DNA from: Chara braunii
Taxonomy: Eukaryota > Plantae > Charophyceae
Assembly: GCA_003427395.1 (NCBI GenBank)
Contig: BFEA01000001.1
Span: forward strand, 12,539,691 to 12,601,309
DNA length: 61,619 nt
Reading direction: 5' to 3'
A model generated the notes under the pieces. The model saw nothing but the letters and a program-made list of their open reading frames with translations. It was not told the DNA's origin and did no database searches. This document shows, piece after piece, positions 9,701-10,390 of this stretch (within the stretch, counting starts at the first letter, position 1; the number at the start of each line of letters is the position of its first letter). Both the position numbers and the translations under genes were made by a program.

Positions 9701-10390
9701 AGCCTGAGCATTGTTTCTACTGTGAATGACTCAGGGCTATGTTTATTTGGCTGTTTTCTGAAGGACCAGGCATTGTTTCTATTGTGAATGGCCTTGTCGC
9801 TGTGTTTATTTGATTGTTTTCTGGGGAGTCAGACATTGTTTCTACTGTGAATGGCCTGACTACCTTAGTTAACTCTGAGGGTTGCCTGATTGAAGGGGTT
9901 TAAATTCTTGTTTATTTTTTAGGGACAACTTTTGGTCCAAGGCTAAGCATTGTTTCCATGGTGAATGGTTTAGCCTGAAAACCACGCACATAATTTAAAC
10001 TAAGTATAAAGGAAAGTATTTTATGTATATTTGCATGTGAACTGGCAGCTGGGCATTGTTTCTACTGTGAATGGTCCAGCGTTAAGCCATATCATTAAGA
10101 AGAGAAAAAGAAAAATACAAAGTATAAATGAAAATAGTTTGGGCAAGCTGAACATTGTTTCTACTGTGAATGGTTCAGTCCCCTGCCCATATTTGCTTTT
10201 TCTTTTGAAAACAAAGTCAGAGAAATACTAATTTTTTGGATATTAAACAGCTCAGGACGACTAGGCATTGTTTCCATGGCGAATGGCCTAGTCATCTGCC
10301 CAAAAGAAGAAAGAAGTAGTTGTGCAAGCTGTTCGTGTATATCATGAAGACAAGCTGGGCATTGTTTCCATGGCGAATGGTCCAGCTCTA
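9701..10390 (+). repeat. array of 8 hairpins with conserved core CATTGTTTCYAYKGYGAATG and variable self-complementary arms
   Basis: Cores start at 9709, 9771, 9834, 9948, 10054, 10153, 10266 and 10360. Each is flanked by its own inverted arms. Confidence 0.93.

What the first reader, a model, noticed from the sequence alone, without database searches (positions are those of the whole stretch)
9701..10390. Array of eight co-varying hairpins presenting a fixed 20-nt core (best candidate for an undescribed system)
Seen: the core CATTGTTTC(T/C)A(C/T)(T/G)G(T/C)GAATG plus one unpaired purine occurs 8 times, at start-to-start spacings of 62, 63, 114, 106, 99, 113 and 94. CATT/AATG closes a 12-nt loop. 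The arms differ between units yet stay complementary: CTGAG/CTCAG, GACCAGG/CCTTGTC, AGTCAG/CTGACT, AGGCTAAG/TTTAGCCT, GCTGGG/TCCAGC, GCTGAA/TTCAGT, GACTAGG/CCTAGTC, AGCTGGG/TCCAGCT. Units 5, 6 and 8 have a further outer stem. Most imperfect pairs are G.U on the + strand, and the linkers are diverged and A/T-rich. Plain tandem duplication with drift would not keep the pairing while changing the arm sequence. Inference: selection on a repeated RNA (or ssDNA) structure, for example a multivalent protein-binding scaffold for packaging, export or silencing evasion, or processing sites that release small RNAs from a retroelement LTR transcript. I do not recognise it as a named RNA family.
Basis: partly seen in the sequence, partly recalled or inferred. 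Interest (0 to 1): 0.82.

Follow-up and report, generated by a model that had tools for sequence, protein, structure and literature searches.

The report
Eight-hairpin docking array in algal retrotransposon
A much-repeated stretch of DNA, likely the long terminal repeat of a jumping gene in the alga Chara, carries eight hairpins whose stems differ yet stay paired under one nearly fixed 21-letter cap; they likely act in the element's RNA as repeated docking sites that would let the element's own proteins pick out its full-length RNA for export and packaging.

Summary
The array is real: 8 cores at the stated spacings, 0.05 expected by chance. It sits in a ~3.9-kb non-coding repeat (about 9190-13147) whose DNA depth is about a thousand times that of its flanks; two more copies hold all 8 units. 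Selection on pairing is strong: all 53 pair states shared by two or more copies are canonical (49 Watson-Crick, 4 G.U), and all 9 mismatches are private to one copy. The core varies less than the linkers (9/168 vs 65/402 columns). Shared G.U pairs point to + strand RNA. Correction: the 'unpaired purine' is a G that likely pairs with the first C, so the 12-nt loop is one of several near-equal folds. The repeat likely is the transcribed part of a Ty3/gypsy LTR of Chara; no link to a pol gene was shown. No Rfam family matches. Best reading: a multivalent docking site for an element-encoded protein; partner untested. The scan noted similar arrays before on other DNA, including another family in this genome.

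The parts
9190..13147 (+). High-copy non-coding repeat that hosts the arrays; likely the transcribed (R-U5) part of a long Ty3/gypsy LTR; left edge approximate
   Evidence: Run X1 summed depth 23-61 in bins 8332-9071, 11,000-736,000 in bins 9257-13141, 7 after 13327; no curated Pfam hit in 83 frames; ends in CCCAACA at 13141-13147
9317..9450 (+). 5' block shared with many related families, read as + strand RNA; followed by a splice-donor-like GT at 9451
   Evidence: Depth peak and loose ends; X23 66 vs 0.41 and X21 48.6 vs 2.9 by mate direction; donor motif; no spliced joint seen
9703..9735 (+). Hairpin 1 (6-bp variable stem + 21-nt cap)
9765..9797 (+). Hairpin 2; its one arm mismatch is private to this copy
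   Evidence: position 9795 reads G in 43 of 43 and 10 of 11 X22 reads
9828..9860 (+). Hairpin 3; carries two-sided changes against the same unit of other copies
9940..9976 (+). Hairpin 4 (second loop type)
10048..10080 (+). Hairpin 5, with outer stem to about 10043-10089
10147..10179 (+). Hairpin 6, with outer stem to about 10140-10189
10259..10293 (+). Hairpin 7 (second loop type)
10353..10387 (+). Hairpin 8 (second loop type; same arms as hairpin 5), with outer stem
10667..11361 (+).
   Evidence: Region z -5.87; 4 of 17 consensus pairs with two-sided changes over 16 units; singly 4 of 6 fold at z -1.8 to -4.9, 2 of 6 do not; 12-mer
12718..13147 (+). Terminal conserved block shared with a second family at 46363-46774, with a conserved donor-like GTAAGT at 12955; likely U5 and LTR end
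   Evidence: 78% identity over 12818-13030 vs 46442-46648; alignment runs to the CCCAACA end; highest DNA depth

Best explanation
The eight hairpins are stems that differ yet stay paired under one nearly fixed 21-nt cap, in a high-copy repeat that is likely the transcribed part of a Ty3/gypsy LTR of Chara, and they likely act in the element's + strand RNA as a multivalent docking site for a protein of the element itself (Gag/nucleocapsid or an accessory protein), which would route full-length RNA to export and packaging. Shown: the array, its conservation in three copies, covarying arms, a conserved cap, the high-copy non-coding host. Inferred: RNA rather than DNA (shared G.U pairs; low + strand reads), LTR status, position in the 5' leader behind a donor-like site so that spliced RNA would lack it. 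Untested: any binding partner and any effect on export or packaging. In this reading the stem is only a stand (any 6-7 pairs do), the cap is the recognised surface, and eight copies give avidity or seed protein multimers.
For: 53 of 53 pair states shared by at least two copies are canonical; all 9 mismatches are private, as expected for decay after insertion. 94-96% of cells paired, 6 arm pairs with two-sided changes, 30 such cells, 0 of 500 shuffles as high; slid controls 18-51% paired. Two arm positions show all four state combinations over the 8 units, so a single duplication tree cannot give them without repeat change or conversion; units 5 and 8 share arms but differ in loop type. Core columns vary less than arms and linkers: 9/168, 18/112, 65/402, Fisher P 3e-4 for core vs linker. 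4 shared G.U and 0 shared A.C. In X21 and X23 the few reads over the array have the same mate direction as the + strand 5' block. The block shared with the family next to Ty3 PR-RT-RH-INT ends at an LTR-like terminus. Precedent in kind: the CaMV packaging signal is a sequence exposed on top of a leader stem-loop and bound by coat protein (PMC5902531, passages); Rev/RRE and CTE export of unspliced RNA (PMC5035971, passages); CERV export of Cer1 RNA (PMC12786077, passages).
Against: No protein partner, and no gag or pol, is tied to this family: 0 of 83 frames in 3.8-13.4 kb reach a Pfam cut-off; no PBS, PPT, LTR start or target-site duplication was found. Only 3 copies were compared, and two were fetched with the core as the pattern, which favours conserved cores. 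The rows are related, so shuffle counts are not probabilities. The + strand is G/T-rich, which favours G.U by composition, and folding z-scores do not separate the strands. RNA over the array is scant in X21 and X23 (depth 0-2); in X22 it is higher but mostly of the opposite direction and tracks DNA depth (rho 0.89). No spliced joint from 9450 among the joints shown (15 of 23; 15 of 245). In retroviruses the signal need not lie behind the donor (RSV).
Confidence: 0.5

Rival explanations
1. Same RNA structure, host partner: the caps recruit or titrate a host RNA-binding protein (export adaptor, localisation or anti-silencing factor), as CTE, RTE and MTE recruit the NXF1 route.
For: All structural evidence fits equally. 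A cap that is nearly fixed suits a partner that cannot co-evolve. IAP and MusD elements use host export factors (PMC12786077, passages).
Against: The cap is confined to this family: the covariance model finds only the 24 input units in 65 kb, next best 12 bits; other arrays noted by the scan have other loops (unchecked notes), which suits family-specific partners.
Confidence: 0.2
2. The leader is a small-RNA cluster or decoy: hairpins are cut by a Dicer-like enzyme, or the 21-nt cap is a decoy site for a host small RNA; the long hairpins of the second array are the better precursors.
For: The fixed part is exactly 21 nt with its variable letters near the middle. The second array has ~33-bp interrupted stems, weak resemblance to plant miRNA precursor models (21-23 bits) and a 12-mer shared with a second family. 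CaMV uses its structured leader as an siRNA decoy (PMC5902531, passages).
Against: In the short hairpins the conserved sequence spans the loop and the stems are 6-13 bp, too short for a 21-bp duplex. The Rfam hits are far below the gathering scores of 70-90 bits. No small-RNA data could be laid.
Confidence: 0.15
3. The core is a repeated double-stranded DNA binding site (enhancer or insulator array, as the Su(Hw) sites of Drosophila gypsy, recalled), and arm complementarity is a by-product of template switching at quasi-palindromes.
For: The core has inverted 4-bp ends, A/T-rich spacers and sits in an LTR-like repeat. Template switching yields two-sided changes without selection (established knowledge).
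Against: Template switching copies Watson-Crick partners and would not keep 4 shared G.U pairs on one strand with 0 shared A.C; a duplex site does not need paired flanks, yet cognate arms pair best.
Confidence: 0.1
4. Translation control: each cap ends in an AUG that opens a short upstream ORF, for shunting or reinitiation along the long leader.
For: The ATG is present in 24 of 24 units; short ORFs beside stems drive shunting in CaMV.
Against: The ORFs run 2-25 codons with no common length; stops follow from arm pairing; 58 ATGs lie in 9190-13147 (75.5 expected), so the leader is not cleared for scanning.
Confidence: 0.05

Closest known systems
Packaging signal of Cauliflower mosaic virus pregenomic RNA (purine-rich sequence on top of the leader stem-loop, bound by coat protein; PMC5902531, passages read)
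   Same: A fixed sequence shown on a stem in the long structured leader of a plant reverse-transcribing element.
   Different: CaMV has one signal on one large stem-loop; here eight small hairpins carry one U-rich cap, in an LTR-like repeat; no binding shown.
Retroviral and retrotransposon export elements: HIV-1 RRE, MPMV CTE, IAP RTE, MusD MTE; CERV-dependent export of Cer1 (PMC5035971, PMC12786077, passages read)
   Same: Structured cis-RNA that would mark unspliced genomic RNA for a protein partner.
   Different: Those are single complex folds or two-fold repeats, mostly in the 3' half; no sequence or Rfam match here. The review states that export of plant LTR element RNA has not been studied directly.
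Tandem repeat arrays in long LTRs and non-coding regions of plant non-chromovirus Ty3/gypsy elements (Ogre, Tat, Athila; PMC6317226, passages read)
   Same: Arrays of repeats in very long LTRs (up to about 5 kb) or non-coding regions.
   Different: Described there as tandem repeats; here linkers have diverged while caps are fixed and stems covary.
Plant polycistronic miRNA precursors (established knowledge)
   Same: Several hairpins in one transcript sharing a 21-nt sequence; the second array has precursor-like stems.
   Different: The shared 21-mer of the first array spans the loop and the stems are too short; no processing data.
Xist A-repeat and CsrB-type multivalent RNA scaffolds (recalled, not checked here)
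   Same: About eight copies of a conserved motif with poorly conserved A/U-rich linkers that bind a protein many times over.
   Different: Unrelated in sequence, taxon and context; analogy of design only.

Membership tests
Any Rfam 15 family | Score at or above the family's gathering threshold | tested here: not met
   Whole window: only U6 (1-100) and an LSU rRNA piece (5904-6094); 9000-13300 at E<=10: 10 hits, all far below gathering
Ty3/gypsy LTR (host element) | Dispersed high-copy repeat with sharp 3' end in TG...CA type terminus | tested here: met
   Depth falls to single-copy level after the 13142-13326 bin; CCCAACA at 13141-13147, the only one before 15,600
Ty3/gypsy LTR (host element) | Matching 5' terminus, second LTR and target-site duplication | tested here: inconclusive
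   No TGTTGGG before 18393 and no second copy in the window; a 690-base N gap lies at 7272-7961
Ty3/gypsy LTR (host element) | PBS, PPT and gag-pol (PR-RT-RH-INT order) linked to this LTR | tested here: inconclusive
   No coding frame in 3.8-13.4 kb; only an indirect tie through the block shared with the family beside PR-RT-RH-INT at 35739-39086
Retroelement packaging or export signal | Structured RNA on the genomic strand, kept by selection | tested here: met
Retroelement packaging or export signal | Present in unspliced and absent from spliced RNA | tested here: inconclusive
   Donor-like site at 9451 upstream; depth drops about 30-fold after it in X21 and X23, but those reads come mostly from other families and no joint was seen
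Retroelement packaging or export signal | Bound by Gag/NC or an export factor and needed for packaging or export | not testable with these tools
   Needs binding and mobility assays
miRNA precursor cluster | Stem long enough for a 21-bp miRNA/miRNA* duplex with the conserved sequence in an arm | tested here: not met
   First array: stems of 6-13 bp, conserved part in the cap; the second array does meet the length
miRNA precursor cluster | Precise 20-24-nt products in small-RNA libraries | not testable with these tools
   No small-RNA raw reads among the 24 runs offered

The most novel reading that the evidence does not exclude
Chara retrotransposons carry a modular RNA address code in their giant LTRs: family-specific arrays of same-cap hairpins, here two different arrays in a row, read by the family's own protein to sort full-length RNA from spliced and host RNA. 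Together with arrays seen in unrelated retroelements this would be a general, undescribed class of multivalent packaging/export signal of LTR and tyrosine-recombinase retrotransposons, and the first defined one in the green lineage.
Probability: 0.35. Interest if true: 0.8.

Novelty: new variant of a known kind. Interest (0 to 1): 0.55.

Why it matters
How plant and algal LTR retrotransposons pick out and export their own full-length RNA is essentially untested (PMC12786077). This array gives a small, sharply defined handle: a 33-nt hairpin whose stem can be swapped and whose cap cannot, present in a family with a very large number of copies. One pull-down and one cap-versus-stem mutant series would show who reads it. 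It would also give a natural, orthogonal RNA tag in the manner of MS2 arrays.

Tried and rejected
No whole genome is held for the window and the two sister loci lie in no held record, so the family-wide covariation test rests on 3 copies. The metagenome scan gave 44 loci; 42 are single matches whose flanks pair at 0-5 of 7 positions against 5-7 of 7 in the arrays, and were dropped as chance. Two viral contigs match the core only, without stems: chance. No RNA holder was listed by the run index: no evidence either way. Run X22 was not counted as evidence of a specific transcript because its depth follows DNA depth. Small shares of the stretch in soil and freshwater runs were not used. The covariance model found no further units in the window. 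Coding role rejected; upstream-ORF role weak. An anticodon-like 7-nt loop fold was never the best fold and lay 3.7-9.6 kcal/mol above it. Iron-responsive-element, Roquin CDE and Cas12a-repeat likenesses are recalled resemblances only; Rfam gave none. Literature: nine searches found no description of this motif or of hairpin arrays in Chara LTRs; the library lacks most subscription papers, the Chara genome paper among those not listed. I recall a small-RNA study of Chara braunii with clustered short hairpin precursors; it did not appear in these searches, so it is unchecked and could bear on novelty. PMC10309623: search listing and two unhelpful passages only. Look-ups of earlier findings by sequence and near this place were empty. 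No supplements were read.

Full report
Observation. The core occurs 8 times at the reported places and spacings, all on the + strand; 0.05 matches are expected with up to 3 mismatches. Arms are as quoted. Pairing each left arm with each right arm gives a mean of 6.4 of 7 pairs for cognate arms and 4.9 for others (Watson-Crick only: 5.9 and 3.4); 2 of 40,320 permutations reach the observed sum.

More copies. A scan of metagenome contigs gave 44 loci; two, L023 and L031, hold arrays and 42 are lone chance matches. L023 and L031 are 86% and 89% identical to the window over 1.45 and 1.67 kb and each holds all 8 units in order. Because they were fetched with the core as pattern, core conservation is somewhat favoured, though one match would have sufficed. 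Across the three copies 9 of 168 core columns vary, against 18 of 112 arm and 65 of 402 linker columns (Fisher P 3e-4). So arms drift as fast as linkers in dead copies, while the core does not.

Pairing. On 18 distinct of 24 units, 94-96% of cells pair, all six arm pairs show two-sided changes (30 cells), 0 of 500 shuffles reach this, and slid registers give 18-51%. These rows are kin, so the sharper test is by inheritance: of the pair states shared by at least two copies, 49 are Watson-Crick, 4 are G.U and none is a mismatch; all 9 mismatches are private to one copy. Two arm positions show all four combinations over the 8 units, and units 5 and 8 share arms but not loop type, so change or conversion has happened more than once with pairing kept. 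Shared G.U without shared A.C points to the + strand as RNA; against this, the strand is G/T-rich and folding z-scores are alike on both strands (+ strand energy lower in 6 of 8 units, equal in 1, higher in 1).

Inner fold. The base after the core is G in 22 of 24 units. RNAalifold pairs it with the first C and draws a 5x2 internal loop, a 3-bp stem and a 6-nt loop of two types. The honest description is a 6-7-bp exchangeable stem with a weakly folded, nearly fixed 19-21-nt cap.

Second array. Directly downstream, 10640-11400 folds at z -5.87. It holds six ~78-nt hairpins with regular single mismatches; 4 of 6 fold well alone, 2 do not. Over 16 units from the three copies, 4 of 17 consensus pairs show two-sided changes. 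A 12-mer in their 3' arm recurs four times at 44301-44470 in another family (12 matches in the window, 0.87 expected).

Host element. In DNA run X1 summed depth is 23-61 in 8332-9071, 33,000-68,000 over the array and 7 beyond 13327; the tool warns that this is no copy number, so I read it only as about three orders of magnitude. The repeat spans about 9190-13147 and has no coding frame: none of 83 frames reaches a Pfam cut-off. Its last 430 bases align with 46363-46774 of a second family (78% over 214 bases) up to a CCCAACA end and include a conserved donor-like site. That family lies beside a broken Ty3/gypsy PR-RT-RH-INT whose protease region hits 6 proteins, 5 named Chara braunii and 1 unnamed. 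I infer a long Ty3/gypsy LTR of Chara, solo or 3', whose U3 has diverged or been replaced; LTR start, PBS, PPT and target duplication were not found, so this is likely, not shown. Very long LTRs with repeat arrays are known from plant non-chromoviruses (PMC6317226, passages).

Expression. In X21 and X23 the block at 9317-9450 is read strongly in the mate direction that, in most stranded libraries, means + strand RNA (48.6 vs 2.9; 66 vs 0.41); the array gets depth 0-2 in the same direction. Nearly all these reads come from other copies or families (3 of 1,812 X23 reads are 99% alike or better). X22 covers the array more deeply but mostly in the other direction, and follows DNA depth (rho 0.89). 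No spliced joint from the donor at 9451 is among those shown. Expression of the array is therefore weakly supported, and its removal by splicing is not shown.

Mechanism. A free stem with a fixed cap, repeated eight times in the leader of a retroelement RNA, is the anatomy of a multivalent protein site. I favour the element's own protein (0.5) because the cap is confined to this family and because reverse-transcribing elements show such signals to their capsid or export proteins. A host partner (0.2), small-RNA precursor or decoy (0.15), a DNA site array with mutational covariation (0.1) and upstream-ORF control (0.05) are the rivals. The packaging/export wording was prompted by earlier notes of this scan, which report same-loop arrays in 13 findings from at least 8 genomes, one in another family of this genome; they are unchecked and are not counted as support.

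Known or new. No Rfam family and no paper in nine searches describes it; subscription papers and a recalled Chara small-RNA study could not be checked. It works like a retroelement packaging or export signal, membership untested; it is not a miRNA cluster by the anatomy of the first array. Verdict: a real, selected RNA structure, a new variant of a known kind, interest 0.55.

Noticed in passing
window 10667-11361: Second array of six long interrupted hairpins, precursor-like; copy number varies between copies (4 in L023, at least 6 in L031).
   Followed up: partly
window 44285-44470: Four 53-bp repeats of another family share a 12-mer with the long hairpins and lie in a similar place, after a TATA-like box at 43963 and before the shared terminal block.
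   Followed up: partly
window 46776-46791: A perfect palindrome joins an LTR-end-like motif to an LTR-start-like motif with two bases between, like a circle junction; it leads into a 1.5-kb repeat (33939-35445 / 46785-48312) that runs into pol-linked coding sequence with no gag in between.
   Followed up: partly
window 40339-41560: Broken extra ORF downstream of integrase with an acidic, then arginine/serine-rich tail; no Pfam hit.
   Followed up: no
window 5904-6094 and about 43450-43520: Diverged LSU rRNA pieces inside repeat DNA; the first found by Rfam, the second recognised from recall only.
   Followed up: no
window 1-115: U6 snRNA copy followed by an A tail, likely a retrocopy.
   Followed up: no
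window 13185-13243, 29727, 49844, 52658, 52790, 59159, 59772: A ~50-bp dispersed repeat in both orientations; at 13190-13243 it draws many poly(A)-library reads, mostly of the - strand direction.
   Followed up: no
window 12282-12461: Strong local structure, stronger on the - strand (z about -6.5 vs -3), inside the same repeat.
   Followed up: no
window 22067-27862: An element with 600-bp direct repeats (86%) around a broken reading frame that looks like a Penelope-type reverse transcriptase by eye; no Pfam hit.
   Followed up: no
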